IMG/VR virus record: IMGVR_UViG_3300033155_001835
Span: 2,603 to 66,602 of that record
DNA from: a virus
Length of the DNA stretch: 64,000 nt
Reading direction: 5' to 3' (one strand)
Shown one piece after another: positions 1-26,810 of the stretch (positions are counted from its first letter, which is position 1; each line of letters opens with the position of its first letter). The notes below the pieces were generated by a model that worked only from the letters and a program-made list of their open reading frames with translations, searched no databases and was not told where the DNA came from. The position numbers were made by a program, and so were the translations under genes.

Positions 1-1
1 T

Positions 2-226
2 GGTGGTGTAAGTATTAAAGGTGTCTTCTCTAAACCTTCAGTTGTTCCTGTCTTTACCAAGAAGGTCTGGGACGCAGTTGGTAATATCATCCCCATTGTA
101 GAAGTCTTCTCTATGCCTACTGATGACAAGGGTGATCTTGGAGAAATGGTGTCCTACAAGAAGGATATTTACGTGAAACTAGAAGGTGGTTGGCATATTG
201 CTCAGGGAGAGTCTGATGCAACTTGA
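2..226 (+). CDS. 5'-truncated small ORF carrying tail-tube-like and decoration-protein-like peptides
   Basis: Frame 2 is open from the window edge to TGA 224-226 (GGVSIKGVFSKPSVVPVFTKKVWDAVGNIIPIVEVFS...GESDAT*). Not in the ORF track. Its 3' end overlaps the next ATG at 216. Confidence 0.75.
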   Translation, partial: GGVSIKGVFSKPSVVPVFTKKVWDAVGNIIPIVEVFSMPTDDKGDLGEMVSYKKDIYVKLEGGWHIAQGESDAT

Positions 227-509
227 ATTTAGCTTTGTTAGAGATGAGAAACCCTATAGAACTCGTGTATATGGCCGTCGCTGCGCGGCTCCTCTTTACG
301 ATATGACTGCTGATAATGAAGGATCTCTACCAAAGGTACACTCTATGAAGAAGGACATTTGTTCTGTTTGTGGTCACGAAGGCACAGACGGTCCTTGCAA
401 ACATCTCTATCCTTCTGTGCCTTCGTTTGCTCAACTAAAGAAGTGGATGCTAGAAACAATTCCTCAATTCCTGACACCTGATGGCAAACTGCAGGATGGT
501 AATATCTAA
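216..509 (+). CDS. Small QLEF-tag protein with prohead-protease-like ICSVC..G.C.H peptide
   Basis: Start reassigned to ATG 216 (GGGAGA upstream), giving MQLEFSFV like its neighbours. TAATG-coupled to the next ORF. Confidence 0.8.
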   Translation: MQLEFSFVRDEKPYRTRVYGRRCAAPLYDMTADNEGSLPKVHSMKKDICSVCGHEGTDGPCKHLYPSVPSFAQLKKWMLETIPQFLTPDGKLQDGNI

Positions 510-751
510 TGCAGACTGAGTTTTCTTTCGTGTTAGACGAGTCTGAGTGGTCTTGTCATCTTCATTCATTTGAATGTCATCCATACGCAATGTTCAAGAT
601 TGGTGACATTGTGCAGATCAGTTGTAACAATACGTTGCTTGGTCCTCATGATGCAGGTGACTATCGTTGGGCTGGCCGCGTTGTTTCTATTCAACATAAC
701 TTTCCTGGACCCTCTACAGCAATAGTTGATACGAGATTTAGATGCAATTAG
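509..751 (+). CDS. Small QLEF-tag protein (MQTEFSFV), possible hub-like peptide
   Basis: ORF track; shared N-terminal tag; overlapping start and stop codons. Confidence 0.8.
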   Translation: MQTEFSFVLDESEWSCHLHSFECHPYAMFKIGDIVQISCNNTLLGPHDAGDYRWAGRVVSIQHNFPGPSTAIVDTRFRCN

Positions 752-942
752 AACTAGGTTTTATAAGACAAGACTTACCTTGGGCTCTTAACGGACGCAT
801 TGCAGAACTGCAACGTGCAGGCTATACGCAGGCTTTTGTTGACAGATGGCTAGATGAATATTTTGAGTACCACCAAAGAATGATTTTTTCTGCCCTTGGC
901 TTCAGTGAAAAAGATATCCCTTTGGCAAAGAGGAAAGTCTGA
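742..942 (+). CDS. Small QLEF-tag protein (MQLELGFI) with portal-like peptide
   Basis: ORF track; tag; DEYFEYHQRMIFSALGFSEKDI aligns to the portal. Confidence 0.8.
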   Translation: MQLELGFIRQDLPWALNGRIAELQRAGYTQAFVDRWLDEYFEYHQRMIFSALGFSEKDIPLAKRKV

Positions 943-943
943 G

Positions 944-1219
944 ATGCAAATGGAATTTTCTTTTGTAAAGAAGTTAGAGCTACCACAACAAGTCGACCCG
1001 CCCTATCTTCCTTCTTCTATCCTTCAAGGAACTCCTACTATATGTACCTTCTCCACTAGTCTTATCTTTGAGGATACAATTGAAATAGGCAGTCCTGTAG
1101 CTCTGGACGAACAAGGTCGTGCTTACCAGGCAACATCTCACCAAATTCAAGATGTGATTGGTGTGGCAGCAGGTAAACCATGCCCTGGTATGATCAATGT
1201 GGTGATGAATGCAGACTGA
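944..1219 (+). CDS. Small QLEF-tag protein (MQMEFSFV) with capsid-decoration/cement-like segment
   Basis: Start reassigned from 896 to ATG 944 (GAGGAAAG upstream, follows the stop at 942). Contains IGSPVALDEQG...DVIGVA. Confidence 0.78.
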   Translation: MQMEFSFVKKLELPQQVDPPYLPSSILQGTPTICTFSTSLIFEDTIEIGSPVALDEQGRAYQATSHQIQDVIGVAAGKPCPGMINVVMNAD

Positions 1220-1403
1220 ATTTAACTTTGTACAACTAGAAAAACCTTACACGCCTAAAATACGCCTGTGGAAACATATGGACAAAATCCCTGAATACGA
1301 TGTAATAGGTATGTACAATGAAATGGCAGAAGACATGAAGAATTTTCATGGGATCGATATTAAAGCATACAAGCAGGAGTACTTGGGAGAATTCATCAAA
1401 TGA
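1209..1403 (+). CDS. Small QLEF-tag protein (MQTEFNFV) with capsid-like peptides
   Basis: ORF track; tag; YDVIGM and EMAEDMKNFHGID; ATGA-coupled to the next ORF. Confidence 0.8.
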   Translation: MQTEFNFVQLEKPYTPKIRLWKHMDKIPEYDVIGMYNEMAEDMKNFHGIDIKAYKQEYLGEFIK

Positions 1404-1690
1404 CAGACAAGCCACGAGCGCCCGCTACCCTTCTTATTCATTCTCTCATGGACACCCTTTGGGATCTTCAAGACAGAATGACCCACACAGGAGACTCCAA
1501 AGAAGGAATGAATGTACTAGAGGCACACGACTATTTCAGTCGAGAAAGTGACCAGGGGAGAGAATGCTCTTATGCTCTTAAAGCAAGATCCCTTTTTGCC
1601 AAACAAGACTACACAGAAATTAAAAAGCTATTTCTGGCTGCCCTTGACGCTTATCGCGCTTGTGAAGGAGACGACTTTGGCACTCCTTAA
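1400..1690 (+). CDS. Hypothetical protein (96 aa, no tag)
   Basis: GGGAGA RBS and ATGA overlap with the previous ORF. No recognisable motif. Confidence 0.7.
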   Translation: MTDKPRAPATLLIHSLMDTLWDLQDRMTHTGDSKEGMNVLEAHDYFSRESDQGRECSYALKARSLFAKQDYTEIKKLFLAALDAYRACEGDDFGTP

Positions 1691-2036
1691 ACCACCAGGT
1701 GAAAACCTAACTAAAGAAAACCCAGCATGGGTCACAGAGTACTATGCCACTAAAAACCAAGTCGGCGATGCTATAGACTGGCCTTCATTCAAACAGATGA
1801 AAGAAGACCAGCAACAGCAAATGCAGAACTGGAAAACAAAACTAAGCTCAGTCAAGATGGATGACATATTCGACGCTTTCTCTAATATAATGAACGCACC
1901 TCTAGCTTCTCCCACCATGGTAATGCACCCTGATACCTGGCAACTCATCTTGAAACACGAAGCATATATACGTATTCTAGAACTATCTACACAACTAGAG
2001 TTTCCTTTTGTAGAGGATGAACTAAAAAGGCCGTGA
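1677..2036 (+). CDS. Small protein with major-capsid-derived segment and C-terminal QLEFPFV tag
   Basis: Start probably TTG 1677 (AAGGAG 6 nt upstream) rather than 1548. SVKMDDIFDAF...TMVMHPDTW matches the MCP. Confidence 0.8.
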   Translation: MALLKPPGENLTKENPAWVTEYYATKNQVGDAIDWPSFKQMKEDQQQQMQNWKTKLSSVKMDDIFDAFSNIMNAPLASPTMVMHPDTWQLILKHEAYIRILELSTQLEFPFVEDELKRP

Positions 2037-2224
2037 TCGGTATCACTCTTTGTGATTTTGACTCTGTCCCTGGGGGCAAGGCAGCAACCTGGAAAGGTAA
2101 AGACCCCAAGGTATGCTATACTGTTGATGATTTGTATAATTTTTTGTACGATGAGTTTGCTGGCGCAGGTCAACTAGAGTTCAAGTTTGTAATATATGAG
2201 GAGTGCCCATGGCTGATGATGTAA
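2033..2224 (+). CDS. Small protein with C-terminal QLEFKFV tag
   Basis: GTGA overlap with the previous stop; tag at 2171-2191. Confidence 0.75.
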   Translation: MIGITLCDFDSVPGGKAATWKGKDPKVCYTVDDLYNFLYDEFAGAGQLEFKFVIYEECPWLMM

Positions 2225-3093
2225 ACATCTCTGAAAATAATAATCCCAAAACTGCTCTAGTAAAGCTTTCTGGGCAGATCATCAAGACAGACGGCTCTTC
2301 CTACGATTCCAACTTCTTTAAGTGTCTAGACCTACATCCTGATGACTATTCTGACATTTCCTACACTCCCAAAGAAGCAGCTAGTATTAGGTCACATCTC
2401 TTGCATCTTTCTACCGGAGCTTCTGCTGCTATTCCTCTGATCTGCGGAGGTACTGCCCATTGTCCATTTGCAGAGAGATGCCCATTTGTTCGGACGGACA
2501 ATATTCGCCGAGCAGCAGATCCGAAAGCAAAGCTTTGTACTCCGATTGGACGCCAGTGTCAGGTAGAAGTTAATCTACTGAGTCAGTGGACCAGAATGTT
2601 CATACACGAATACGAGATCGATGAAAAGAGCTTTTCTCAATTCACCATGGTCAGATTGCTTGCAGAGTGTGAGTTGATGTTGTGGAGGCTGAATAACAAC
2701 CTGGCAAAGCCTGAGAACGCAGAGTTGGTTGTAGATCAGGTAATAGGTGTGGACAAGGAAGGGAATGTCCTGACTCGCCAAGAGGTCTCAGCCTTCGTAG
2801 AGGCCAAAGAGAAGTATGAGAACAAGAAACTCAAATTGATCAAATTAATGGTTGGAGATCCACAGGAACAGTACAAGCGTGCCGCCGCCCTGCGTCAACG
2901 TGGGAAAGAGGATCCGTCTACCAATGCAGCGCAACTCCGCGCATCTCTTGATAGATTACAGAGAGAGGCTAAGGCCTTGGATTTAATGGTGAAAGAGGTA
3001 GAGGGAAACGTAATTGACGCGGAGGCTCTCCCAATAGAGGCAGAAGAAGTAAAGGATGATACCCTGTCCCCAGAGGACCTGCTCAAGGAGTAG
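2209..3093 (+). CDS. Cys-rich helical protein, candidate terminase small subunit
   Basis: GAGGAG RBS before ATG 2209. C..CPF..CPF..C..C cluster, helical core and charged C-terminal coiled coil, upstream of TerL. Function inferred from position only. Confidence 0.45.
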   Translation: MADDVNISENNNPKTALVKLSGQIIKTDGSSYDSNFFKCLDLHPDDYSDISYTPKEAASIRSHLLHLSTGASAAIPLICGGTAHCPFAERCPFVRTDNIRRAADPKAKLCTPIGRQCQVEVNLLSQWTRMFIHEYEIDEKSFSQFTMVRLLAECELMLWRLNNNLAKPENAELVVDQVIGVDKEGNVLTRQEVSAFVEAKEKYENKKLKLIKLMVGDPQEQYKRAAALRQRGKEDPSTNAAQLRASLDRLQREAKALDLMVKEVEGNVIDAEALPIEAEEVKDDTLSPEDLLKE

Positions 3094-3103
3094 TGGTATC
3101 AGT

Positions 3104-6100
3104 TTGGCTAACGCATTCATCCAACAGCTATATGCAGAAGGTATAGTTTCAGGAGAGTTATCAGCTCCTGAGTCTATTCGTGCGCGTGCAGCACATGTTG
3201 CGAAGCAGTCTGGATTCACCTTCGTTACAGAAGGGAAACCTCTTTTTCGAAAAGGGGAGAGATGGAAAGTAGGGTCTGTTAAATATAAGACTCATACTCG
3301 CTTCTATGCTCAGACACAAGCCATCAGAGAGAACTGGGAAGCCAGAGCTTCTTCTGTTTTTGGGAGACCTCTATCTACAGAACGTCTAGAGAACCTTACA
3401 GCAGTGATACAAGCCCACGAGGGCGCAGAAGCTTTCTATCTTGGCAAGACAGGACACCAGCGCTTTGGTAGTCATGCATCAGAGTCAGTCATCCAGAGTG
3501 AGCTAGAAGTAGCACGCAGGATGGGTCCACAGACAGCAGCAGATACTGTTAGATACAGAAGGTGGGAAAGTGAACAGCTAGTTGGTATGGCAACACATCA
3601 GACTCCATACTGGAACACATATAGACAAAGAATGGGATCTATTCTGGACGAGTTCGAAAGCCAAGGTGCTGTAGTAGGTTCAGGTTGGCAAAAGAGAGGA
3701 GGTCGAAGGTACCGTTCTGTTGCTGAACAGTTTAAGCTTGACCCAAATAAAAATGTAACACTTTTCCATGGTACTAACGAACTGTCTGCACAGAGAATTG
3801 CAAAGGGTGTGTTTGAACAAGGTGCAGATAGAAACTATGTTGAGTATCATCGTTTGGCTAAAGCTCAAGCAATTGAATCTTGGGCTGCTCCCCGTGGCCC
3901 TGTTGCCGGTGGGCTTATAGGTGACAGGCCACTATCTGCACTAGAGCAAAAACAGTTTCATACTCCAGCATTACTTGTCACCGAAATACCTTCTAAGTAT
4001 GTAGGAATACAGTCTGGCACCGGACAGTTTGATGAAAATATTGTATGGTCAGAGGGCTTGAAACAAGCAAAGCATAGAGTGGTTACTGGAGAAGAAGCCT
4101 TGCAGAGAATCTCTGAACAGAACTTAACTGTTCAGGAATACTTTGAGGAAGAGAGTTTCAAAAAGCAGGCGGCTGCGAAGTCTTCGGCTATGGCCCGTAC
4201 TGAAACTGCAATGGCCAAGGCAGGCAAAGCTACTGCATTAAACCCTGACGAGGCCTGGGCAGCCTTTCTTGACGAGAAGACTCCGGGTACTCCACGAGGC
4301 CTACCTCCTCCTGTAGAAGCTACTAGAGGCTTCAAACGTATATCTCGTTGGAAGATAGGACTAGGTGTAGGAGCAGCGGCCCTAGCGGGGTACGGAATTA
4401 CTAAACTACTCCCAGATGAGAACAGAGGTTACTACTCCTTTGATGGTTTCCAGCATGCTGGTACTGCACCAGGCATCCGTAGAGATATGACTCCATTTGG
4501 TTCCAAATATGACAGAGTGCGTAAGCTTGCAGGTATGATGGAAGAGACCTTTGAGATGATGACATCACGTAAGGGTTTCAAGCAGGCCTTACAGAGTGCA
4601 AAGCTAGTCAAGACATTTGAAGAGGGTTCCTTTGCTACAGCAGGTCTATATAGAGCTTCCTACAAGGGTAAGTCTTTTAGGTTTGTCAAGAAGGAGATCT
4701 CTCAGGAAGCAAAAGAAGAGCTGATGCGGAATGCAGCTAATCCAGAGAAGTATGCACGTGGTCTTGATCTGGAGCATGAAGCTAAGTTCCTTCGTGAGTT
4801 AGGAGAAACACCAGCGGCTCCTTCTCTTTATGGTCACTTCGATGATGCATTATATATGGAGTACATGCCAGGAGAGAGAATGGGTGACTGGGCAGTCAAT
4901 AACCCAGCTGCTGTTATGACTAGACAAGCCAAAGAAGATATAGAAGAGACAATCTACCAGGCAGCAAAGAAGGGTTTTACAAACCTAGATATCCATGGCG
5001 GTAATATTCTATTTGATCCAAAGACAGGCAGAGGTTCTTGGATTGACTGGGGCCTAGCTACACGAGAAGCGTCAGGTGTTGTAGGTCAGTCTTCTGAAAT
5101 GAGTGGTAAGTTTCTTGGTACCACTGGTGTCGCTGTACCGCTCCTTGAGCAGAAGGCTCATATGATGCAGGGCTCTATAAGAAAGGTATCCAGCTCTTTT
5201 GCTTCTGTACCAGCTGGTCCCCGCGCAAAGCTTTTAGCAGAACAGAACGCTTCAGAAGGTATGAAGCATGGTGGAATGGCTCAAAGAAAGCGTTCCTCTA
5301 TTACAGAGTTTGGTTCTAAATGGAAAGGTATGTTTGGTAGACTTTTTGGTGGCAAGTCAAAGGCAGCTTGGAAAGGAGGAGCCCGTCAGCTTCCAGAAAG
5401 ATTGCAAGTGGTAGCTAGAGATTGGCAGGGTGTTACTGCACGTCCAGAACGATTACAACAGTTTCTACATGCAGATATTGAGGCAAGTGGTCTCAGTAAT
5501 GCACTCCAAAAAAATCTTAAGAAAGAAGCAAGTCAGTTTCTAAAGGGAGCTAAAGCACAAGAACACTATGTCATTGCCAACCCAAGAGCGATCAAAGAAG
5601 GCGCGGCAGAAGAAGGTGTTTCTTACCTAGCTCGATATAAGGGTGTTATGCGCCATGAACGTTTTCACCAATCTATTGCTAAACATAAAGTTAGAGACTC
5701 TTTGAGACTTCTAAATGATTCTTCTTTTATCCCTGAGCATTTCCATAAATTTGCAGGCAAGAATGCTGCTGAAGAGTATTTTGCATATGCTATGGAACAA
5801 CCTTTAGTTCGTCGTCAGTCAGGATACAAACACGCTATGGCTCTCTTCAAGGGTAATGATGCTGCCTATACTCGTATTGAAGCGTTACACGGAAAAAATG
5901 TAGCATCGCAGTTGCGTAAGGTTTTAACAGATTTTGGTTCTGGCTATAGAGGATTGCAAGCTTCTTTTAGCAAGACAGTTGCTCAAGCTGCTAGACCAAG
6001 AGCAGGCATCAAATTGACCAATTCAGCTAAGGACCTTAAACTAGCACAAGAAAACATATGGGAATGGGCAAGAGGCGGCGGTCAACGTCACACTCGTCCA

Positions 6101-6148
6101 ACAGGCAGTCACGTACAACAACTATCTAACTTTGGAGGTATTCTATAA
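3104..6148 (+). CDS. Polyvalent protein: zincin-like, ADP-ribosyltransferase-like, Ser/Thr kinase, zincin
   Basis: Frame is open from 3056; likely start is TTG 3104 (TTGGCTAAC, as at 20003 and 37774). Motifs: AHEGAE; LFHGT..I..GVF; EGSFA..VKK..E..LYMEY..DIHGGNIL..IDWGLA; RHERFH..EEYFA. Confidence 0.75.
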   Translation: MANAFIQQLYAEGIVSGELSAPESIRARAAHVAKQSGFTFVTEGKPLFRKGERWKVGSVKYKTHTRFYAQTQAIRENWEARASSVFGRPLSTERLENLTAVIQAHEGAEAFYLGKTGHQRFGSHASESVIQSELEVARRMGPQTAADTVRYRRWESEQLVGMATHQTPYWNTYRQRMGSILDEFESQGAVVGSGWQKRGGRRYRSVAEQFKLDPNKNVTLFHGTNELSAQRIAKGVFEQGADRNYVEYHRLAKAQAIESWAAPRGPVAGGLIGDRPLSALEQKQFHTPALLVTEIPSKYVGIQSGTGQFDENIVWSEGLKQAKHRVVTGEEALQRISEQNLTVQEYFEEESFKKQAAAKSSAMARTETAMAKAGKATALNPDEAWAAFLDEKTPGTPRGLPPPVEATRGFKRISRWKIGLGVGAAALAGYGITKLLPDENRGYYSFDGFQHAGTAPGIRRDMTPFGSKYDRVRKLAGMMEETFEMMTSRKGFKQALQSAKLVKTFEEGSFATAGLYRASYKGKSFRFVKKEISQEAKEELMRNAANPEKYARGLDLEHEAKFLRELGETPAAPSLYGHFDDALYMEYMPGERMGDWAVNNPAAVMTRQAKEDIEETIYQAAKKGFTNLDIHGGNILFDPKTGRGSWIDWGLATREASGVVGQSSEMSGKFLGTTGVAVPLLEQKAHMMQGSIRKVSSSFASVPAGPRAKLLAEQNASEGMKHGGMAQRKRSSITEFGSKWKGMFGRLFGGKSKAAWKGGARQLPERLQVVARDWQGVTARPERLQQFLHADIEASGLSNALQKNLKKEASQFLKGAKAQEHYVIANPRAIKEGAAEEGVSYLARYKGVMRHERFHQSIAKHKVRDSLRLLNDSSFIPEHFHKFAGKNAAEEYFAYAMEQPLVRRQSGYKHAMALFKGNDAAYTRIEALHGKNVASQLRKVLTDFGSGYRGLQASFSKTVAQAARPRAGIKLTNSAKDLKLAQENIWEWARGGGQRHTRPTGSHVQQLSNFGGIL

Positions 6149-7740: not shown

Positions 7741-9741
7741 GTGCTACTTGACCTCAATCAATGTGATCCAACCTGTAAGAGCTGTGTCTCTCTTTATTTT
7801 AAGAAGCACAAAGTAAAGCAAGGTACTGAAAAGCCTTTCAGAATTACTTGTGAAGGTATTCCTCTTAATTATATCCCTGACAGTATATTAGCAGCAATTG
7901 GTGGCGACCCCGAACTGGCTATCTCTACTTATGATCCTGTCGTATGGGCTCGTAAGTTTCTAGACTGGCATTGTGAAGATCCAGATGGTGAAGTTTGGAA
8001 AAGAAAAACGCTTGAGCATAGTCTACCTCCAGAAGCCGCATCCTATGATAAAGAGAGAGCCGAAGCTGGTAAGTCTATTTTCCATAGACCTTATCAGGCT
8101 GACATGCTCCGTTGTGCCGCAAAGTATAAAGCGTTCCGTATTGGCCGTCAGGCTGGCAAGACAGAGACTCTTTGTATTGCTATTTTGTGGGCGCTATATA
8201 CACACGAAAAGTTTAAGGTTGTTTTAATTTGTCCTTATCAAGCACAGGTAGAAATGATCTTTGGTCGTCTAGAAGACCTAATTTCCTCTAGCTCGCTACT
8301 GAGTGATGCTATCGCAAGAAACGCAAAAGCTCCTAACTTTCAGATCAAGCTCTTTAATGGTTCTCGTGTAAATGGCTTCACGGCTGGTACACGTTCTGGC
8401 CAAGATGCTGGTGCTGCACGTGGTCAGCCTGCAAACATGCTAGTGTTCGATGAGGCCGACTATCTTTCTCCTGGTGACATTCAGGCAACTCTAGCTACGA
8501 TTGTTAACTTCGATAAAGCTACTGTATGGATGTCCTCAACACCAACGGGTCGTAGAGAGAAGTTTTACGAATCTTGCAACAATCGAATTTATCGTGAGTT
8601 CTACTACTCCTCTATGGTCAACCCCAACTGGACTCCTGAGAAGGATGAGTTCTTCAAGTCTGAATATACAGACGAACAGTACAGACACGAGATTCTTGCT
8701 GAGTTTGGCGAGCAAGAGGAAGGTGTATATCAGGTTAAGTATGTAGAGGCTGCACAGGCAGAGTATGAATATGCAGAGATGACGCCGCAGCCTACATGGA
8801 CCTATATGATTGGTGTGGACTGGAACGACGTGAAGATTGGTACCACTATTGCAATCGTTGGTCACAACCCTCATGACGGTCTTTTTTATATCGTAGATAA
8901 GCATACTATTAGTCGTGCAGAACGTACTCAGTTGGCAGCATGTAATAAGATTGCAGAGCTGAACCGTCTGTGGCGTCCAGCAGCTATTTATGTAGACCAA
9001 GGTTATGGAGCTACACAGATTGAAGTACTCCAAGGCTTTGGCGCTACTGAGCTGCGCACCAAGGGTCCGAACCATCCTGATGCTCGTCTACGTAATATTG
9101 TTAAGGGTTATGACTTCGGTAGCAGTATCGAAATTCGTGACCTCTTCACCAAGCAGGCTATCAAGAAGCCAGCCAAGCCATTCTTGGTAGAGACTTCTGT
9201 TCGTCGCTTTGAGCAACAGCAAATGCGCTATCCTGCTTCTGATGAGAAGTATACTGCACAGCTTCTTGGTTATGTTATCCAACGTGTTTCTATCACAGGT
9301 CGCCCAGTCTTTGAACAGCAGAACGAGAAGGCTGGAGACCACTTGCTTGATGCTGTCAACTTAGCTCTTGTTGCATTCGCTCTTGAGAAGAGTGAGTTTG
9401 GTAAACCAACTTACATGCAACACATTGCTTTTGGTGGTCAATTTGGAGATAATAAGAAACAGCGACCAATTACCGATGCAAGAGATAATCGTCCGAAACA
9501 AGGAAGGGCAGCGGTGATGACTGATGGTAATCAACCTATTATCCCTTCTGCTCAGGGTGACTTGCCTGCTGCAAACCATTCTGTAGAATCAGGCATAGGT
9601 CTTTGGAATTGGCCTGGATTCGGCCATGATGCTCCAAAGCCAAGAGTACGCACATTAGGTGAAGCGTTTAATCAAGCACAAGAAAGAGTCACAGGGAGAC
9701 CTTCTCGTAGACGCCCCCGCCCACGTCGTGCTAAATTCTAG
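7741..9741 (+). CDS. terL: Terminase large subunit
   Basis: RPYQ Q-motif, Walker A GRQAGKT, Walker B LVFDEAD, coupling motif STPTG, RNase H-like nuclease GVDWN..DQGYG..DHLLDA. Confidence 0.95.
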   Translation: MLLDLNQCDPTCKSCVSLYFKKHKVKQGTEKPFRITCEGIPLNYIPDSILAAIGGDPELAISTYDPVVWARKFLDWHCEDPDGEVWKRKTLEHSLPPEAASYDKERAEAGKSIFHRPYQADMLRCAAKYKAFRIGRQAGKTETLCIAILWALYTHEKFKVVLICPYQAQVEMIFGRLEDLISSSSLLSDAIARNAKAPNFQIKLFNGSRVNGFTAGTRSGQDAGAARGQPANMLVFDEADYLSPGDIQATLATIVNFDKATVWMSSTPTGRREKFYESCNNRIYREFYYSSMVNPNWTPEKDEFFKSEYTDEQYRHEILAEFGEQEEGVYQVKYVEAAQAEYEYAEMTPQPTWTYMIGVDWNDVKIGTTIAIVGHNPHDGLFYIVDKHTISRAERTQLAACNKIAELNRLWRPAAIYVDQGYGATQIEVLQGFGATELRTKGPNHPDARLRNIVKGYDFGSSIEIRDLFTKQAIKKPAKPFLVETSVRRFEQQQMRYPASDEKYTAQLLGYVIQRVSITGRPVFEQQNEKAGDHLLDAVNLALVAFALEKSEFGKPTYMQHIAFGGQFGDNKKQRPITDARDNRPKQGRAAVMTDGNQPIIPSAQGDLPAANHSVESGIGLWNWPGFGHDAPKPRVRTLGEAFNQAQERVTGRPSRRRPRPRRAKF

Positions 9742-10856: not shown

Positions 10857-12371
10857 ATGGCAAATGCGACTACACCCTCAAGTGCTAAAAACGTAAAGCC
10901 CCGCTTTGACTTCAGCGGAGTAGATCCTTCTACTGTGAATGTAGACACTCTTGATCTAGGCACTAACCAATCGGATTGTGCTATTATCGCTCAGACGTTC
11001 GAGCGCGGTGCTCATTCTACTCCTTCAGAAGCTGCAGTTTTTGCTACCATTAGTCGCACGTTACAAAACAACAAAGCTTTCGCTATCTCTTCTAGTGCCT
11101 CTTTCAAAACATACTTAGGTGCTCCACAAGAAGATGCAGCTACTGTTGCTCAACAATCAAACCAGTATGCTGCCGCAGGCGCTAGTATCTCTGGTGGCGG
11201 CGGTTCTAGTGCACAGACTCAACAGTTTATGCAGTCCTTAAATATAGGCACTCAACAACAGACAACACATGGAGATTCGTTTGGAGAGAAATTACTAGAT
11301 AAAGCACGCGAATGTATTCCTTGTGGCGTACGTTTGTCTGCATTCTTAGAACTCCAGCCTAATGTTGATTTATTGGGTAGTTTTGAAACTTATTTAAAAA
11401 CAGCTCTTGGGAACTTGCAAAGTGTTGCTGATCTACTAAACAACTTTGACACCTATGGAGACTTGTGCGCCCTGCTCAACCTTTTCTCCTTTATGTGTAT
11501 CCCTGACCTACAACGTATTATTGCTTTGTTTATGGCCCTCTTTATCCTTGAGGTACCAGAGCTGGATGGTCTTATTGGTTTGTTAACCTCTCTAGTCATG
11601 CCTATCTTCGCTCCTATCCTTGTAGGTATCTCTACTCTCTTGGATCAGTTTGTAGTACTTATTACTAATCCACTTGCCTGTGTAGTAGATGCAATCAACC
11701 TACAGATAAAAAAGCTTGGCTTCGAATCTACTCGCGAGGGTAGAAGGTTAAAGAAGGATCTTAAGGACGCTTCGACGAAAAGCAAAGAAGTTACAAAAGA
11801 GATTAACAACGGTATCAAAGAAATGAAAAAGCAGTTGCAGGAGGGTATACAGAAAGTTAAAGCAAGGATGAGTTTCTACACCCAGCAGATTAATGCAATG
11901 TTGGGTGAAATGGGAGGCGGCGATGCTGCCTACCTCCAAGCCAAACTTAAGGTATTGCAATTGGTTCGTCTGATTGCTTTTGTTACTGCTATTATTAACG
12001 CTCTAACCAGAGGCCATGCTGCTTGTTCTAATACAGGCAAGAATGCAGAGGCTCCTGAGATTGAGAACTTTTATCAAAACTTCCTTAATCCACAAGCCCC
12101 TTTCAATATCTATCTCGATAATAATGGTAATTTAAAGATCGATGAAGATTTTGGCGACCTCGGTGATGAACTAGAGGACTTGAATGAAACAGGAAATGTG
12201 TTTCAATTTGAGGGGGAGTCTTTGCTGGACACTACAGTGCTGCAAGCTGTTGAGGAGGTAACTGTCTCGTTGACATCACCTACACAGGTCGCAGTTCCTT
12301 GCAAACTGGAGACAACTGTTTCTGATGTAGGAAAGGTCAATCAGTGGATGGAACAACTTAACCAATCATGA
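10857..12371 (+). CDS. Hypothetical protein with hydrophobic helices and coiled coil
   Basis: 504-aa ORF; CIPC/CIPD motifs, long hydrophobic stretch, K/E coiled coil; immediately upstream of the portal. Confidence 0.75.
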   Translation: MANATTPSSAKNVKPRFDFSGVDPSTVNVDTLDLGTNQSDCAIIAQTFERGAHSTPSEAAVFATISRTLQNNKAFAISSSASFKTYLGAPQEDAATVAQQSNQYAAAGASISGGGGSSAQTQQFMQSLNIGTQQQTTHGDSFGEKLLDKARECIPCGVRLSAFLELQPNVDLLGSFETYLKTALGNLQSVADLLNNFDTYGDLCALLNLFSFMCIPDLQRIIALFMALFILEVPELDGLIGLLTSLVMPIFAPILVGISTLLDQFVVLITNPLACVVDAINLQIKKLGFESTREGRRLKKDLKDASTKSKEVTKEINNGIKEMKKQLQEGIQKVKARMSFYTQQINAMLGEMGGGDAAYLQAKLKVLQLVRLIAFVTAIINALTRGHAACSNTGKNAEAPEIENFYQNFLNPQAPFNIYLDNNGNLKIDEDFGDLGDELEDLNETGNVFQFEGESLLDTTVLQAVEEVTVSLTSPTQVAVPCKLETTVSDVGKVNQWMEQLNQS

Positions 12372-14749
12372 AAATCTTTGGCTTCGATATCAACTGGAAC
12401 AAAGCACCAGCAGATCAGGTAATCGTTCGCACGGTTGCACCTGCAACAATTCCTGTCTCTAAAATCCCTACTGTTAAAATTGGTTCTCTTTCTTATGCAC
12501 AACAGTTTGCGCAAGGACGCGGCCATTTTCAGTCTGCAGAGTATGACTTATCCGAAATTGGTAAGATAGAAGATACTGATGGCTTTGTCCGTCAGGCTTT
12601 CAAAAAGAAAGAAGGCTTGATGTTCAAAGAGGGCGTTGGATGTAAGGGAGCTAACAAACGTACAGTCCGTTATTACAAGACTCGTATGGCTCAAATAGCT
12701 CAGGCATCTAGTGTTCCCACAAGTATTCTATTGAAGCGAGTGGCGCGTAGTCTTATTCGTACCTCAAACGCCTTTCTTGTTAAGGTTCGTGACCCAAACA
12801 AGTCTGGTGGTAGTATGCGTACTACTGCTGATGGTAAGCGTTTAAAGCCAATTGCTGCCTACTTCCCAGCTGCACCAGAAACAATGCGTGTAGATTTGGA
12901 CGCAAATACAGGCAAAATACGTAAATGGCGACAAGTTCTTCCAGATGGACGTTGGAAAGACTATCAACCAGAGAATGTTGTTCATTTCGCAATCGACAAG
13001 CGAGAGGGCTTTTTCTTTGGAGTTCCTTCTATTATTCCTGTTATTGATGATATTCGTGCCCTTCGCCAGATCGAAGAAAATATTGAACTACTTTTATATC
13101 AACATCTCTTTCCTCTTTTCCATTACAAGGTAGGTACTGAAACAGCTCCTGCTGGATATACCGAGGAAGGAGTAAGGGAAGTTGACGCAATAGAGACTCA
13201 GATTAGCATCATGCCTTCTGAGGGCGCTATCGTTACTCCAGAGCGTCATGAGATTAAAGCTATTGGCTCTGAGGGTAGAGCTGTTAGAGCTGAAGGTTAT
13301 CTAACCCACTTCAAGAAACGTGTCTTTGCAGGTCTAGGCGTCTCTTCTGTAGACATGGGCGATGGTGATACAACCAACAGAGCTACTGCTCAAACCCTTT
13401 CTCGTGCAATCATTGATGCTGTTAAGGCTATCCAAGATGATCTTGAAGCACAATGGAACCAGCATGTCATTTCCGAACTACTTCTTGAAGGCGACTTTGG
13501 TGCTCGTGTTCTTGAAGAAGAGGATATGGTCTTCTTACAGTTCACTGAAATTGATATTCAGAACAAGATGGAGATTGAGAAGCATGCTATGGAGCTATGG
13601 AAGGCCAGCTTGTTGACATTTGATGAAGCCAGAGGCGCAATGTCTCATGAGCCTATTCCTCTTCCAGAACATGGTGAAGAGCAGGATCCAAAGAAGTACC
13701 CTGAATGGTTCTCTATTTACTTCAAGCTTATCGAAGAGCCTCTTAACCTTATTCGTGCCGTCGATGAACCTTTCAGTATGGCTGCAAGAGCTATGGCTGA
13801 AGCACGTGGTGCGGCTATGACCGAGAAGGGCAGACAAGAGCAGATTGCAGGTAAGAAAGAAGAGGTTAAAGCTCAAGCAGAAGAGGATAGGAAGACCAAG
13901 ATCGCTGTTGTTAAAGCAAAGCCAGCCTCGCCTCCTTCTACTAAGAAGAAAGATCACTACCTCTCTACTGCTTTCAAGGACCTTGAGTCTGATACTGTTG
14001 ATCGTATCCAAACTAGCATCACCTCCAGAGGAGTTGTTGATGCTGAATACCTTCTATCACTAGCTCGTATATGGGCTGCGGATACTGTAGAGAAACTACA
14101 TTCTCTAGCTGTGGGTCAGTTAATCCTTGGTTTTAATGATCAAACTAACATGCAAGCATCGAACGCTGAAGTCTTACTTTCTGTAGGTCGTCAGATCATT
14201 TTGGACCGTATTGACTACCGTATCAACAAACTGGTTGTTAATACTGTGAACCTTGTCTCCCGCCGAGTTGACGAGAACCTTGGTGATGTTAAACTGGCGG
14301 AAGCATTGCCGGATGTAGCCCGCGAATTGCATATTGCATTTGATGCAGTTAGATATCGTACGGACTTCATCTGGGATGTAGAGATTCGCAAGGCCTACGC
14401 TTTCGGTCGTGTCCTTGGTATGAGACATCTAGGCGAGTATGGTTTTGAATATCATGCCCATTCAGATAGTTGTGAACGTTGTGCTGCAATAGATGGCCGA
14501 GTAATGCCTGCCATGGCTGCGGGGATCGACGACGTACCTCCTCTTCATCCAAACAGTCGGATGAAGTTTAAGATCGTTAGAGAAGACCCAAGCATTGTAG
14601 ATGTAACTGACGCAACAAAAGAAGGTATTGAACAGATCATGGTACCGTGTCCTGAGTGTGGCAAGTCAGCAACCTGGCAATCGAAAGCAGCAAATTACTA
14701 TTGTGCGGCATGTTCACATTCATTTGTTGAAAAGGATATCAAGGAGTAA
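12368..14749 (+). CDS. Portal protein fused to MuF-like domain and Zn ribbon
   Basis: Position between TerL and protease; portal-type segments (NAFLVKVR, VVHF..FFGVP, FAGLGVS, LTFDEAR). C-terminal CERC..DG..PPLHPNSR and CPEC..CAAC. Confidence 0.88.
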   Translation: MKIFGFDINWNKAPADQVIVRTVAPATIPVSKIPTVKIGSLSYAQQFAQGRGHFQSAEYDLSEIGKIEDTDGFVRQAFKKKEGLMFKEGVGCKGANKRTVRYYKTRMAQIAQASSVPTSILLKRVARSLIRTSNAFLVKVRDPNKSGGSMRTTADGKRLKPIAAYFPAAPETMRVDLDANTGKIRKWRQVLPDGRWKDYQPENVVHFAIDKREGFFFGVPSIIPVIDDIRALRQIEENIELLLYQHLFPLFHYKVGTETAPAGYTEEGVREVDAIETQISIMPSEGAIVTPERHEIKAIGSEGRAVRAEGYLTHFKKRVFAGLGVSSVDMGDGDTTNRATAQTLSRAIIDAVKAIQDDLEAQWNQHVISELLLEGDFGARVLEEEDMVFLQFTEIDIQNKMEIEKHAMELWKASLLTFDEARGAMSHEPIPLPEHGEEQDPKKYPEWFSIYFKLIEEPLNLIRAVDEPFSMAARAMAEARGAAMTEKGRQEQIAGKKEEVKAQAEEDRKTKIAVVKAKPASPPSTKKKDHYLSTAFKDLESDTVDRIQTSITSRGVVDAEYLLSLARIWAADTVEKLHSLAVGQLILGFNDQTNMQASNAEVLLSVGRQIILDRIDYRINKLVVNTVNLVSRRVDENLGDVKLAEALPDVARELHIAFDAVRYRTDFIWDVEIRKAYAFGRVLGMRHLGEYGFEYHAHSDSCERCAAIDGRVMPAMAAGIDDVPPLHPNSRMKFKIVREDPSIVDVTDATKEGIEQIMVPCPECGKSATWQSKAANYYCAACSHSFVEKDIKE

Positions 14750-14756
14750 TCGCTGT

Positions 14757-16514
14757 ATGGATAATTTTGTTAGATTTAGAGATGCCTTAAATGTGAAGCC
14801 TCTTGAGATTAGTCAAGATGTGAAAGATTTTTATGCAGGTCTAGGCACTAGCCAAGCTGCTGTTCAGCCTCTGCGTGTACGTATTGCAGCAACTCATGCT
14901 GGCAAGATTACTCGTAACAACGGTTTTTATCTACCACACAAAATGGCCGCAGGCGTTTCTTCTTTTACGGACCAATATGCAAAACCAATTCAGATTCATC
15001 ACCAGGATGATTTAGACCCAATTGGACGTGCAGTTGGAGCAGCATATGTAGACATGAGTAGAGGGTTCCGTGATTCGGTACAAGACTCATACTCTAACTC
15101 TTCATTTAAACAATTGCAGGACTTTGTAGATGGGCGTCTTTCTTACAAGGATGCATGCGCCTTCGCCACTAAGTTCTTCATCAATGATATGGTTGTAAAC
15201 TCAGACCCTGATTATGAAGGTCTTGGCTATATCGAACTAGTTGCTGACATTACAGATCCACTAGCTATCCAAAAGATTATAGATGGACGATACCTCACTG
15301 GTTCTACAGGCGCTACTACTAACAAGGCAATTTGCTCTGTTTGTAAACAAAATTGGGCTGCCGAAGGAAAATGTGAGCACCGACCTGGCAAGGTGTACGA
15401 TTCCGCTAAGTGCGTACTAATTGCTGGAGATTTGACGTATGACGAGTACTCTTTTGTTAACAAACCAGCCGATAGACACTCTCGTGTTATCGAGGTCAAT
15501 GTTAACGGAATTCAAGATTTTGTTACAATGGATGAGCAGGCAGAGTGTAGCATCCCAGAAATCACTCTGGTTGTTGATCGACATCAACACAAACAATCCG
15601 AGGAGGATCAAAACATGTTATTTAAGGATGCCATGGAGCTTGTCCGTAAGAGTGAGAAGTTTGACGAAGTGAAGGACCTAGAAGATAAGGTCAAGAAGTT
15701 TGTTGACGAACACAAAGACCTTGATGAAGCTAAGCTTTTCGAGCTGCTTACACCACAGGATGATAAGCAAGAAGAAAAGAAAGAGGTTAAGGACGACGTG
15801 AAGCAGGAAGACAAGAAGGAAGAAGTTAAGGATGACACTCCTGCGGTCCTCACTGCTGACCTTGTACAGAAGCTTATTGCTGATGCACTTGTTGCTAAGG
15901 AAAAGGCTGATGAAGAGTCAAAGAAGGCTGCTGAAGAGCAGAAGACTGTTGTCGAAGACGCGGTTAAGAAGGCTACTGTTGAGCTGACTGTCGAAAGAGA
16001 TAAGCTCCAGAAGAATCTTGACGTGGCTCGTAAGGAGATCCGCTATCTCCATTCAGACATTGAGAATTTGACTAATAGTATGGCTGACAGTGTAGAAGAA
16101 GTACGCAACGCACGAGTTAAGCATATTGTCGATCTCAAGGTTTTGGCTGATGAGAAGGCTGACGTAGAAGCTCTGACTGTTGAGTTGAAGGATAAAACTA
16201 ACGATGACCTACAGGGAATGCTAGTAGATCTAGGTAGTAAAGTTGACACTCAGAAAATCGCGGATACACTTAACTCTGGATTATCAAATAACCCATCTGG
16301 CACCGTTGATGACCCAACGCTGAAGCAAGATGCTTCTATCGGAACTGAGACTAAAGAGACTGGAGAAATTGTAGTTACTGATGAACTTGCTGCGCAAGTT
16401 AGATTCCAGTGGCTCCAGATTAATAAGGCTCAGGGTAAGAAAGCAGCGGACGCATTCATCGATGATTGTAAGACACAAAAGATTCTACCTGCTGAGTGGC
16501 CAGAAAAGAAATAA
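14757..16514 (+). CDS. Prohead protease-scaffold fusion
   Basis: AAGGAG RBS before ATG 14757. HK97-like protease pattern (THAG..N, H..PIGR, YLTGSTG, ICSVC..CEH, EYSFVNKPAD) followed by an acidic/Lys coiled coil. Confidence 0.85.
   Translation: MDNFVRFRDALNVKPLEISQDVKDFYAGLGTSQAAVQPLRVRIAATHAGKITRNNGFYLPHKMAAGVSSFTDQYAKPIQIHHQDDLDPIGRAVGAAYVDMSRGFRDSVQDSYSNSSFKQLQDFVDGRLSYKDACAFATKFFINDMVVNSDPDYEGLGYIELVADITDPLAIQKIIDGRYLTGSTGATTNKAICSVCKQNWAAEGKCEHRPGKVYDSAKCVLIAGDLTYDEYSFVNKPADRHSRVIEVNVNGIQDFVTMDEQAECSIPEITLVVDRHQHKQSEEDQNMLFKDAMELVRKSEKFDEVKDLEDKVKKFVDEHKDLDEAKLFELLTPQDDKQEEKKEVKDDVKQEDKKEEVKDDTPAVLTADLVQKLIADALVAKEKADEESKKAAEEQKTVVEDAVKKATVELTVERDKLQKNLDVARKEIRYLHSDIENLTNSMADSVEEVRNARVKHIVDLKVLADEKADVEALTVELKDKTNDDLQGMLVDLGSKVDTQKIADTLNSGLSNNPSGTVDDPTLKQDASIGTETKETGEIVVTDELAAQVRFQWLQINKAQGKKAADAFIDDCKTQKILPAEWPEKK
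15615..16514 (+). CDS. Nested in-frame scaffold protein (internal start)
   Basis: AGGAGG at 15601-15606 precedes in-frame ATG 15615, exactly at the protease/coiled-coil boundary. Confidence 0.6.
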   Translation: MLFKDAMELVRKSEKFDEVKDLEDKVKKFVDEHKDLDEAKLFELLTPQDDKQEEKKEVKDDVKQEDKKEEVKDDTPAVLTADLVQKLIADALVAKEKADEESKKAAEEQKTVVEDAVKKATVELTVERDKLQKNLDVARKEIRYLHSDIENLTNSMADSVEEVRNARVKHIVDLKVLADEKADVEALTVELKDKTNDDLQGMLVDLGSKVDTQKIADTLNSGLSNNPSGTVDDPTLKQDASIGTETKETGEIVVTDELAAQVRFQWLQINKAQGKKAADAFIDDCKTQKILPAEWPEKK

Positions 16515-25736: not shown

Positions 25737-25785
25737 TCACTAGTTGCGCTACACTAGTTATGACATCAGCACAAGTATTGGGCAC

Positions 25786-25816
25786 AAGCCGTCCTTCGGG
25801 GCGGCTTTTGCTTTAC
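25786..25816 (+). terminator. Rho-independent terminator with UUCG tetraloop
   Basis: AAGCCGTCC-TTCG-GGGCGGCTT followed by TTGCTTTAC. Confidence 0.85.
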
Positions 25817-25844
25817 TTGACAGCGAATTCTTGACCGTTACCCT
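25817..25844 (+). promoter_or_regulatory. Candidate sigma70-type promoter
   Basis: TTGACA 25817-25822, 16-bp spacer, TACCCT 25839-25844, directly after the terminator. Confidence 0.35.
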
Positions 25845-25861
25845 ATGGGTAGGTGATTTGA

Positions 25862-26800: not shown

Positions 26801-26810
26801 GAGTGACTAA

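What the first reader, a model, noticed from the sequence alone, without database searches (positions are those of the whole stretch)
2..2224. Array of tagged mini-genes carrying fragments of the phage's own virion proteins: candidate decoy/mimic system
Seen: nine tiny coupled ORFs. Seven carry a shared Q[LTM]E[FL]xF[VI] tag. At least five contain a short peptide that aligns by eye to a different structural gene further along this window: MCP (15/31 identical, ungapped), decoration N-terminus (11/14), tail tube (7/9), prohead protease (ICSVC..G.C.H) and portal (6/22 plus AGYT). Weaker matches point to the hub and the decoration beta-tulip. Codons differ synonymously from the source genes, so the peptide rather than the DNA is conserved. 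Established: portal (Avs4), major capsid (CapRel, Lit), tail tube (DSR2) and prohead protease (some CBASS) are known triggers of bacterial anti-phage sensors. Inference: a modular epitope-plus-tag library that titrates or redirects host pattern-recognition receptors, or poisons assembly of competing related phages. I know of no described system with this architecture. The array probably continues left of the window.
Basis: partly seen in the sequence, partly recalled or inferred. Interest (0 to 1): 0.93.

Follow-up and report, generated by a model that had tools for sequence, protein, structure and literature searches.

The report
Tagged mini-gene array in a phage
An uncultured large phage carries a row of tiny genes that all bear the same short address peptide, and two of them hold conserved snippets of the phage's own capsid and tail proteins; what the address docks to is still unknown.

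Summary
Nine packed, co-oriented small genes (g0-g8) lie just upstream of a probable small-terminase gene in an uncultured relative of Bacillus jumbo phage 0305phi8-36. Eight carry one peptide, M-Q-L-E-F-x-F-[VI]-x-x-E. It sits at residue 1 in six genes and 7-10 residues before the stop in two. One copy lies left of the window.

Selection acts on the peptide, not the DNA. The tag recurs in relatives (5 copies in L153; variants in L154, L151, L158 and G001) on different payloads and at swapped ends. It therefore behaves as a portable docking tag.

Of the five claimed virion-protein matches, three beat shuffled controls:
- MCP helix-strand in g7: p about 2e-6; profile-profile probability 95%.
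- Probable tube N-terminus in g0: p about 2e-4.
- "Decoration" N-terminus in g0: p about 2e-3.

The protease (p 0.18) and portal (p 0.73) matches do not. Payloads of relatives show no such matches apart from the MCP-like family, so this is not a systematic epitope library.

The tag's partner is unknown. The best fit is a sliding-clamp-binding-type motif, as on phage Mu MuC (about 35-40%). A T4-like capsid-targeting peptide is the main rival. The decoy reading is untested. This scan has found shared terminal tags on other phages' mini-proteins before.

The parts
1..226 (+). g0, 98 aa. The full gene is record 2532..2828 (window -70..226), and its tag MQREFDFIWKE lies left of the window. It carries a tube-like peptide (residues 15-34, window -25..31) and a 'decoration'-like peptide (residues 42-58, window 56..103).
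   Evidence: no relative among 5.8 billion clusters of similar length
216..509 (+). g1, 97 aa, N-terminal tag MQLEFSFVRDE (216..248). It shares a 22-residue module with g0. Its CSVC..C.H motif resembles the protease/scaffold Zn-ribbon only at chance level.
   Evidence: p 0.175; z 7.7
509..751 (+). g2, 80 aa, N-terminal tag MQTEFSFVLDE (509..541). The payload looks like a generic small beta-barrel.
   Evidence: p 0.065 vs 16542..17942; scores under 0.9, a lead only
742..942 (+). g3, 66 aa, N-terminal tag MQLELGFIRQD (742..774). The claimed portal match is not supported.
   Evidence: p 0.73
944..1219 (+). g4, 91 aa, N-terminal tag MQMEFSFVKKLE (944..979). The payload resembles small phage cement/decoration proteins.
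   Evidence: Atlas look-alikes PF22758, PF09956, PF02924; score 0.94; no Pfam hit at E<=1
1209..1403 (+). g5, 64 aa, N-terminal tag MQTEFNFVQLE (1209..1241).
1400..1690 (+). g6, 96 aa, untagged. This conserved helical small protein is present in all nine relatives examined. It separates the N-terminally tagged genes from the C-terminally tagged ones.
   Evidence: no relation to MCP (probability 0.3%)
1677..2036 (+). g7, 119 aa, C-terminal tag QLEFPFVEDE (1992..2021). It holds an MCP-like helix-strand segment at 1848..1973.
2033..2224 (+). g8, 63 aa, C-terminal tag QLEFKFVIYE (2171..2200). The Pro-Trp codons after the tag overlap the start codon of the next gene, as in L153.
2209..3093 (+). Conserved 294-aa protein with four invariant Cys, a probable small terminase. 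It served as the anchor for finding relatives.
   Evidence: no PDB fold match; BFVD: uncharacterised relatives first, then terminase small subunits at E 2.6e-3 and weaker
18543..18668 (+). Source-like segment in the MCP (17970..19232), residues 191-232, matched by g7.
25074..25130 (+). Source-like segment at the N-terminus (residues 6-25) of protein 25056..25736, the probable tail tube, matched by g0.
16575..16622 (+). Source-like segment at the N-terminus (residues 11-27) of protein 16542..17942, which sits at the position of 0305phi8-36 gp124 and is matched by g0.
   Evidence: no significant similarity to gp124 itself

Best explanation
SHOWN. The stretch is a real, fast-turnover array of small genes at the head of the packaging and virion gene block of an uncultured 0305phi8-36-like myovirus. 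Eight genes carry one portable short linear motif: M-Q-L-E-F-x-F-[VI]-x-x-E in this phage and L153, with the core Q-x-x-hydrophobic-x-hydrophobic across the clade. The motif is kept at the peptide level. It sits at either protein end. It is attached to unrelated payloads, and it changes ends on the same payload family in relatives. That is the behaviour of a docking (address) tag that plugs different small payloads into one common partner.

INFERRED, about 35-40%. The partner is a sliding clamp: the host beta clamp or a divergent phage beta homologue such as the one reported for 0305phi8-36. The invariant Gln with hydrophobic residues three and five positions later, an acidic residue between them, and the placement at Met1-Gln2 or near the C-terminus resemble bacterial clamp-binding motifs, including the experimentally tested N- and C-terminal motifs of phage Mu MuC.

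SHOWN. The payloads are a mosaic. The g7 family holds a 38-residue homologue of an MCP helix-strand. g0 holds copies of the most conserved N-terminal peptides of the probable tube protein and of the protein between protease and MCP. All three are old and under purifying selection.

INFERRED. g0 and g7 therefore bind what those segments bind in the virion proteins, and act on or near virion assembly as a cap, competitor or tether. They are not part of a systematic epitope library.
For: Tag is real and peptide-level. There are 8 copies within 2.3 kb and none of that form elsewhere in a real ORF. Across 13 aligned copies, mean information in the seven core codons is 1.26 and 1.59 bits at codon positions 1 and 2 against 0.87 bits at position 3.

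Tag is portable.
- L153 (neighbouring gene 60% identical) has 5 copies. Three are N-terminal (one with a TTG start, one cut by the contig end). Two are C-terminal, at the same two positions as g7 and g8.
- L154, L151 and L158 have one each next to the same gene.
- G001 has three C-terminal variants, QLVFAF, QLRLYL and QIPFLF. They are the only such endings in real ORFs of its 94.5 kb, apart from one doubtful case.
- The MCP-like payload carries the tag C-terminally here, N-terminally in L153, and has tag-like peptides at both ends in G001.
- Payloads are otherwise unrelated: of 91 pairs, only g0/g1 and g7/r1 stand out.

Genes are coding.

Virion-derived segments. hhalign of the g7 family against the MCP family gives probability 95.1%, E 3e-8 over 38 columns. 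The g6 control gives 0.3%. The g0 peptides match this phage's own two proteins best, and the score mostly falls with distance over seven orthologues each.

Clamp reading.
[quoted passage not shown] They also give a Mor/C family N-terminal consensus Qx[D/E][L/M]F and the general consensus QL[SD]LF.
- Passages read in PMC2988020 say the hydrophobic-acidic C-termini of T4 gp43, gp55 and gp33 bind the clamp and are interchangeable.
- Complete relatives encode a Pol III alpha-type polymerase in 3 of 3 cases.
- Passages read in PMC3201878 report a C-family polymerase and a divergent beta homologue in 0305phi8-36.
Against: No binding partner was shown.

The motif is not the canonical pentapeptide. 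Its hydrophobic residues sit at positions 4 and 6, a variant I know only from recall. The conserved [VI]-x-x-E that follows has no role in clamp binding.

The tagged genes sit in the packaging/virion block, not among replication genes. No replication protein of this clade could be inspected, because the record (66.6 kb) and G001 (50% complete) lack that part of the genome.

No beta-clamp C-terminal domain (PF02768) was found in 0 of 5 related records; only that one Pfam model was tried. Complete but more distant relatives lack the tag: at most scattered single hits of the loose pattern in the other 60 of 66 loci.

g0 has no relative anywhere, so selection on its peptides rests on one genome's codon pattern.

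The names 'tube' and 'decoration' are positional.
Confidence: 0.4

Rival explanations
1. Capsid-targeting tag. The peptide works like the T4 capsid targeting sequence. It carries a varied set of small proteins into the prohead, where the prohead protease may remove it. The payloads are then injected with the DNA, as T4 internal proteins are.
For: Six tags start at Met1 and span about 11 residues ending in a conserved acidic residue: Glu nine positions after the Gln in 11 of the 13 aligned copies, Asp in one, Glu shifted by one position in one. The payloads are small and diverse, and the genes adjoin the head genes. Passages read in PMC9026906 and PMC3012670 say T4 internal proteins share only a 10-19-residue N-terminal propeptide, that positions 4 and 7 target and 8 and 10 direct cleavage, that Alt is processed at both ends, and that the payloads are diverse defence inhibitors. 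The phage has a gp123-type protease/scaffold (E 3e-27).
Against: Two tags here, and all three in G001, are C-terminal, and the G001 tags lack the acidic residue. The three Gly-rich proteins before TerL have no tag; their positional counterparts in 0305phi8-36 are virion proteins by mass spectrometry according to the record's annotation. No cleavage motif is known for this phage group. The invariant Gln is not explained.
Confidence: 0.2
2. Capsid-surface anchor. The tag is a shared beta-strand arm that fixes alternative small decoration/cement-type proteins to the capsid lattice, giving a mixed display of small domains.
For: g4 resembles small cement/decoration proteins (PF22758, PF09956, PF02924 clusters; score 0.94). 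The tag lies outside most of the aligned cement core in those rows. L-E-F-S-F-V alternates hydrophobic and polar residues like an edge strand (sequence). g0 copies the N-terminal peptide of the protein at the decoration-protein position.
Against: Only one payload looks cement-like, and by a lead-level method; Pfam found nothing. The abundant protein at the decoration position does not itself carry the tag. That decoration proteins anchor by an N-terminal arm is recalled, not taken from a call.
Confidence: 0.1
3. First reader's reading. This is a tagged library of virion-protein epitopes that titrates or diverts host sensors of structural proteins, or poisons the assembly of competing phages.
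For: Three virion-derived peptides are real and under purifying selection. They copy the most conserved parts of their source proteins. Passages read in PMC13728456 confirm that MCP, portal, tube and other structural proteins trigger CapRel, Avs and CBASS.
Against: Only 2 of 9 proteins carry such peptides, and the portal and protease matches are at chance level. In relatives only the MCP-like family recurs: 1 of 11 mini-ORFs. No defence-related family or context was seen. No phage-encoded structural-protein decoy appears in the passages read from PMC13728456, the one paper I opened of the three listed.
Confidence: 0.1
4. Gene nursery without a common partner. The array is a recombination hotspot near the genome end where new ORFs arise from scraps of the phage's own genes. 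The shared N-terminus is a relic of duplication or an expression aid, and the virion-like pieces have no function of their own.
For: Composition is mosaic: g0 and g1 share a 22-residue module, and G001 s2429 resembles the N-terminal region of the large polyvalent protein. Turnover between relatives is high, and g0 is an orphan. Many related contigs break 1-5 kb upstream, and two complete relatives have terminal repeats.
Against: Third codon positions are near random while the peptides are 44-75% identical, which points to purifying selection. The tag is kept across phages on different payloads and at both ends, which neither a duplication relic nor an initiation-region effect explains.
Confidence: 0.1

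Closest known systems
Clamp-binding motifs of phage Mu MuC and the Mor/C family (PMC12867686, passages read)
   Same: Small phage proteins carry a short motif that begins at Met1-Gln2 (Q-x-[D/E]-hydrophobic) plus a second copy near the C-terminus. That motif docks the protein to a hub, the beta clamp.
   Different: MuC has the pentapeptide form (QHDLF, QPDLF). The array here has hydrophobic residues at positions 4 and 6 and a conserved [VI]-x-x-E extension. MuC is one DNA-binding regulator, whereas here eight unrelated payloads carry the motif. Binding is untested here.
T4 gp43, gp55 and gp33 clamp-binding C-termini (PMC2988020, passages read)
   Same: Highly similar hydrophobic-acidic terminal peptides sit on unrelated phage proteins, are interchangeable, and dock to one ring-shaped hub.
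   Different: They are C-terminal only, number three proteins of known function, and their partner gp45 is encoded by the phage. No clamp gene lies in this record.
T4 internal proteins with the capsid targeting sequence (PMC9026906, PMC3012670, PMC5694885, passages read)
   Same: Diverse small proteins share only a terminal peptide of about ten residues, with rapid turnover of payloads between related phages.
   Different: Packaging and cleavage are unknown here. Some tags are C-terminal. The sequences are not alike in any tested way.
Shared terminal tags on phage mini-proteins found earlier in this scan on other phages (e1-3422449, e1-1044338, e1-5345930, e1-4105502)
   Same: Many small, unrelated phage proteins carry one conserved short terminal peptide whose partner is unknown, and relatives have lineage-specific versions.
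   Different: Those tags are C-terminal. This one is mostly N-terminal, starts at Met1, occurs at both ends, and is joined to payload pieces derived from virion proteins.
HK97-fold major capsid proteins (for the g7 family only)
   Same: A 38-column profile match to an MCP helix-strand segment.
   Different: g7-family proteins are 66-119 aa and cover about a tenth of the fold, so they cannot be capsid proteins.

Membership tests
Bacterial beta-clamp-binding motif clients | Motif of the QL[SD]LF type: Gln, then hydrophobic residues that fill the clamp cleft | tested here: inconclusive
   Gln is invariant in the 13 aligned copies and in the variants of G001, L151 and L158. Hydrophobic residues sit at +3 and +5, not +3 and +4. 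The pattern agrees with the Mor/C consensus Qx[D/E][L/M]F in its first four positions only (PMC12867686).
Bacterial beta-clamp-binding motif clients | Motif lies in an exposed terminal or linker segment | tested here: met
   The motif is at residues 2-8 in six proteins, and 7 and 10 residues before the stop in two.
Bacterial beta-clamp-binding motif clients | [quoted passage not shown] | not testable with these tools
   The host is unknown and no clamp gene lies in the record. One modelling job gave no verdict (see Tried and rejected).
Bacterial beta-clamp-binding motif clients | A clamp-dependent replisome in the system | tested here: inconclusive
   A Pol III alpha-type polymerase is present in 3 of 3 complete relatives. 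PF02768 was found in 0 of 5 records. The part of this phage's genome that would hold replication genes is missing.
T4-type capsid targeting sequence / internal proteins | Short N-terminal propeptide shared by otherwise unrelated small proteins | tested here: met
   Six of the eight tags are N-terminal. Payloads are unrelated, apart from a 22-residue module shared by g0 and g1.
T4-type capsid targeting sequence / internal proteins | Removal by the prohead protease at a defined site, and presence of the payload in the head | not testable with these tools
   This needs virion mass spectrometry. A conserved acidic residue after the tag is compatible with cleavage but proves nothing.
T4-type capsid targeting sequence / internal proteins | Tag is N-terminal | tested here: not met
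   This fails for g7 and g8, for two genes of L153, and for all three G001 tags, which are C-terminal. T4 Alt does have a C-terminal propeptide (PMC9026906).
HK97-fold major capsid protein (g7 family) | Homology over the fold | tested here: not met
   Only 38 columns match (probability 95.1%). phmmer with g7 found no MCP among its 3 hits at E<=1e-3.
Phage cement / decoration proteins PF22758, PF09956, PF02924 (g4) | Match to the family model | tested here: inconclusive
   No Pfam hit at E<=1 and no annotated PHROG. Atlas feature score 0.94, with structure rows at TM 0.53-0.58.

The most novel reading that the evidence does not exclude
The array is a tethering system for virion-protein mimics. 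One address peptide docks small proteins to a hub (a clamp on replicated phage DNA, or the prohead). Payloads such as g0 and g7 present copies of the tube N-terminal strand, the 'decoration' N-terminal arm and an MCP helix-strand. They could cap or recruit the phage's own structural proteins, timing or placing assembly. Alternatively they could occupy host sensors that read those same conserved surfaces.
Probability: 0.12. Interest if true: 0.9.

Novelty: new variant of a known kind. Interest (0 to 1): 0.6.

Why it matters
Short terminal peptides that plug many small phage proteins into one partner keep turning up in uncultured phages, and almost none has a known partner. This case offers three things.

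- The tag works at either end of a protein, and its core resembles a motif with a well-studied receptor, the sliding clamp. That gives a direct binding test.
- There is a clean evolutionary series: the same tag on swapped payloads.
- Purifying selection acts on short copies of capsid and tail interface peptides inside mini-proteins.

A small-protein family derived from an internal segment of the major capsid protein appears to be undescribed. I base that on my own knowledge; no literature search was made on this point. If the mimic reading holds, it would show a new way for a virus to regulate its own assembly or to blunt immune sensors that read structural proteins.

Tried and rejected
- Pfam on the nine mini-proteins and the neighbouring gene: nothing above the curated cut-offs. 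PHROGs on five mini-proteins (g0, g2, g4, g6, g7): nothing annotated.
- Close-relative scan of viral contigs with the single 294-aa protein: 0 relatives.
A peptide re-scan of those 118 loci found two with a second hit, L070 and L127. There the pattern lies out of frame at the 3' end of a capsid-like gene, so it is chance.
- The tag-like stretch in the 1030-aa protein (window 3206..3247) is not kept in L151 or G001, so I do not count it as a ninth copy. The C-terminal QESYNFI of tube paralogue 26811..27578 is treated as chance.
- g6 against MCP: rejected.
- Promoter and terminator scan of the first 5.4 kb: no more sites than in shuffles.
- AlphaFold2 of the MCP with 7 sequences failed (pLDDT 31.9). 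The position of the copied segment in the fold therefore rests on low-confidence secondary structure.
- MCP profile against PDB sequences: 0 hits.
- Fold of the 294-aa protein: no PDB match at E<=1e-3. BFVD gave weak small-terminase matches.
- Complex modelling of g3 with two copies of E. coli DnaN as a stand-in for the unknown host clamp: no verdict, score 0.01 against a mark of 0.34, controls not run. This is not evidence either way.
- Sequencing runs holding window 1-3000: none was listed.
- Pol III alpha loci of distant relatives were cut short, and those relatives lack the tag, so their clamp motifs could not be compared.
- 0305phi8-36 (first 24 kb) and MTATph1 (first 12 kb) show no tag.
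- Supplementary files were not opened. Those of PMC12867686 (Mor/C motif alignment) may bear on the motif comparison.
- PMC2171028 (0305phi8-36 proteome) is not held, so I could not check processing sites.


Full report
CONTEXT. The window is bases 2603-66602 of a single 66,602-bp virus record. PHROGs identify a large terminase (7741..9741), portal (12368..14749), major capsid protein (MCP, 17970..19232) and tail sheath (23155..25038), so this is a myovirus. The MCP is 31-37% identical to those of Moorella phage MTATph1, Bacillus phage 0305phi8-36, Acinetobacter phage ME3 and three further Bacillus phages: 8 records matched, all of 177-235 kb.

The left end is laid out as in 0305phi8-36. Leftward genes come first, then a rightward block of small genes, virion proteins, TerL, portal, protease/scaffold, an abundant structural protein and MCP. 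Related complete records are 188-191 kb, and two have terminal repeats. The record is therefore about a third of a large genome. Protein 14757..16511 is homologous to 0305phi8-36 gp123 protease/scaffold (E 3e-27).

The names 'tube' (25056..25736) and 'decoration' (16542..17942) are positional. Homologues of the former are annotated as tail tube in 1 of 8 records and as 'major structural' or 'major head' protein in most of the others. The latter shows no significant similarity to gp124. Pfam and PHROGs do not settle either name.

THE ARRAY. From record position 1961 the + strand carries two untagged small genes. Nine more follow, which I call g0-g8. They are packed with overlapping stop and start codons. 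All nine use codons like the phage's large genes in the called frame and unlike them in shifted frames.

A six-frame scan of the whole record finds the tag eight times, all in this array. It starts at Met1 of g0-g5. It lies 7 and 10 residues before the stops of g7 and g8. g6 has no tag. A degenerate DNA form occurs 4 times against 0.01 expected.

I aligned 13 copies: 8 from this phage, 4 from L153 and 1 from L154. Codon positions 1 and 2 of the core carry 1.26 and 1.59 bits, and position 3 carries 0.87 bits. The consensus is M-Q-L-E-F-x-F-[VI]-x-x-E. Selection therefore acts on the peptide.

RELATIVES. The gene right of the array (2209..3093, 294 aa, four invariant Cys) has 106 homologues. Its fold has no PDB match, but it weakly resembles small terminases in BFVD. 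Using it as an anchor I obtained 29 viral and 49 metagenome loci.

- L153 (anchor 60% identical, 2.2 kb) has five tags. Three are N-terminal: one with a TTG start, and one cut by the contig end. Two are C-terminal, on the two genes between the g6 homologue and the anchor, exactly as in the window. Even the overlap of the anchor's start codon with the Pro-Trp codons after the last tag is the same.
- L154, L151 and L158 each have one tag next to the anchor.
- G001 (anchor 53%, MCP 79% identical, 94.5 kb) has three C-terminal variants that lack the Glu residues: QLVFAF, QLRLYL and QIPFLF, each after a basic stretch. These are the only such endings in real ORFs of that record, apart from one doubtful case.
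- More distant relatives keep g6 but show no tag. With a loose pattern, hits upstream of the anchor are four times denser than downstream: 0.125 against 0.032 per kb over 66 loci.

Payloads at equivalent positions are unrelated. Only g0/g1 and g7/r1 stand out among 91 pairs. The MCP-like payload has its tag at the C-terminus here, at the N-terminus in L153, and has tag-like peptides at both ends in G001. This is the signature of a portable module.

THE VIRION-PROTEIN MATCHES. I ran Smith-Waterman comparisons of the nine mini-proteins against 42 large proteins with shuffled controls. Three matches are supported.

- g7 residues 52-94 against MCP 191-232: score 92; 0 of 1000 shuffles reach it; Gumbel p 1.7e-6.
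- g0 residues 15-34 against residues 6-25 of the probable tube: score 73; 0 of 1000; p 2e-4.
- g0 residues 42-58 against residues 11-27 of protein 16542..17942: score 64; 2 of 1000; p 2.4e-3.

The protease match (p 0.175) and the portal match (p 0.73) are not better than chance. g2 (p 0.065) and g5 (p 0.035) are marginal before correction for nine tests.

At the DNA level, third codon positions agree in only 7/19, 7/16 and 11/36 codons, while amino-acid identity is 13/19, 12/16 and 16/36. The copies are therefore old, and the peptides have been kept by selection.

The MCP-like segment defines a small-protein family of four members: g7, L153 r1, G001 s3361 and a 77-aa protein, P0110. Its profile matches the MCP profile with probability 95.1%, E 3e-8, over 38 columns. 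The g6 family, used as a control, gives 0.3%.

g0 has no relative in the large protein collection. Its two peptides score highest against this phage's own proteins and mostly lower against more distant orthologues: tube 73, 67, 62, 60, 55, 51, 43; the other protein 64, 60, 60, 59, 49, 46, 37. They copy the most conserved parts of those proteins.

The principle does not generalise. Of 11 mini-ORFs from L153, L154, L151, L158, L152 and L155, only r1 (MCP-like) matches a virion protein of this phage. In G001, 2 of 7 small ORFs reach p<=0.05: the g7 homologue against MCP, and s2429 against the N-terminal region of the large polyvalent protein.

g4 looks like a whole small cement/decoration-type domain. 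g2 looks like a generic small beta-barrel. g0 and g1 share a 22-residue module. The payloads are thus a mosaic of small domains and scraps, some taken from the phage's own late genes.

WHAT THE TAG DOES. Shown: one short peptide, conserved at the protein level, is portable between payloads and between ends, and is confined to this array in two phages. Inferred: it docks the payloads to one partner.

The best sequence analogy is the bacterial clamp-binding motif. The general consensus is QL[SD]LF. Phage Mu MuC has QHDLF at residues 2-6 and QPDLF at its C-terminus, both needed for clamp binding and late transcription. The Mor/C family N-terminal consensus is Qx[D/E][L/M]F (PMC12867686, passages read). 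T4 offers a parallel with the interchangeable hydrophobic-acidic C-termini of gp43, gp55 and gp33 (PMC2988020, passages read).

Relatives of this phage encode a Pol III alpha-type polymerase (3 of 3 complete records). 0305phi8-36 is reported to have a divergent beta homologue (PMC3201878, passages read).

Against this reading: the spacing of the hydrophobic residues differs from the pentapeptide. A hexapeptide form with that spacing is something I recall but did not see in a call. The [VI]-x-x-E extension is unexplained. The genes sit with packaging and head genes. No replication protein of this clade could be inspected.

The main rival is a T4-like capsid targeting peptide (PMC9026906, PMC3012670, PMC5694885, passages read). 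It fits the Met1 position, the length, the acidic end and the diverse payloads. It does not fit the C-terminal tags or the G001 variants. A capsid-surface anchor and a pure gene-nursery reading are kept at about 10% each.

The tag-plus-payload architecture and three of the five peptide matches stand. The idea of a systematic epitope library does not. No result here touches host sensors. A recent review confirms that structural proteins are common triggers. It shows no phage-encoded decoy of them in the passages I read (PMC13728456; search). The decoy or assembly-poison idea remains possible but untested.

NOVELTY. Terminal docking peptides on phage proteins are known (Mu, T4). This scan has already met shared C-terminal tags on mini-proteins of other uncultured phages. 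New here are a tag used mostly at Met1 but also at C-termini, its tight confinement to one array beside the terminase gene, and payload segments derived from MCP, tube and a head protein under purifying selection. I know of no description of the MCP-fragment family. I ran no literature search aimed at it.

Noticed in passing
window 3056..6148: The 1030-aa protein after the probable small terminase has a stretch near its N-terminus (3206..3247) that matches the extended tag at seven positions, but the stretch is not kept in L151 or G001. The likely true N-terminus (TTG at 3104) carries a motif N-[AF]-F-[IT]-Q-x-L-Y that is shared with L151 and L157.
   Followed up: partly
L153 1381..1405: A run A-AAA-AAG lies in the zero frame of the last tagged gene, just inside its overlap with the 294-aa gene. 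A -1 slip there would read into the 294-aa frame. The window has no such run.
   Followed up: no
L151 169..669, L157 169..633, L005 1641..2174: Relatives carry a gene with an HC-x-x-G-x-S-R-S motif (dual-specificity phosphatase-like by eye) in the same upstream array. This window has none.
   Followed up: no
window 25056..27578: Three consecutive paralogues of the probable tube protein match PHROG 9206, which is annotated 'major head protein'. Public records annotate the homologues inconsistently as tube, major structural or major head protein.
   Followed up: partly
L004, L006, L023, L028, L029 and the window's own record: Many related contigs begin 1-5 kb upstream of the 294-aa gene. This fits a genome end or terminal repeat close to the array.
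   Followed up: no
L201 2429..2872: In G001, a 147-aa tagged mini-protein resembles residues 47-150 of that phage's large polyvalent protein (score 73, 0 of 100 shuffles). This is another payload built from a late gene.
   Followed up: partly
window 15420..15480: The CSVC..C.H motif of the protease/scaffold protein is conserved in 0305phi8-36 gp123. It looks like a zinc ribbon inserted in the protease domain.
   Followed up: no
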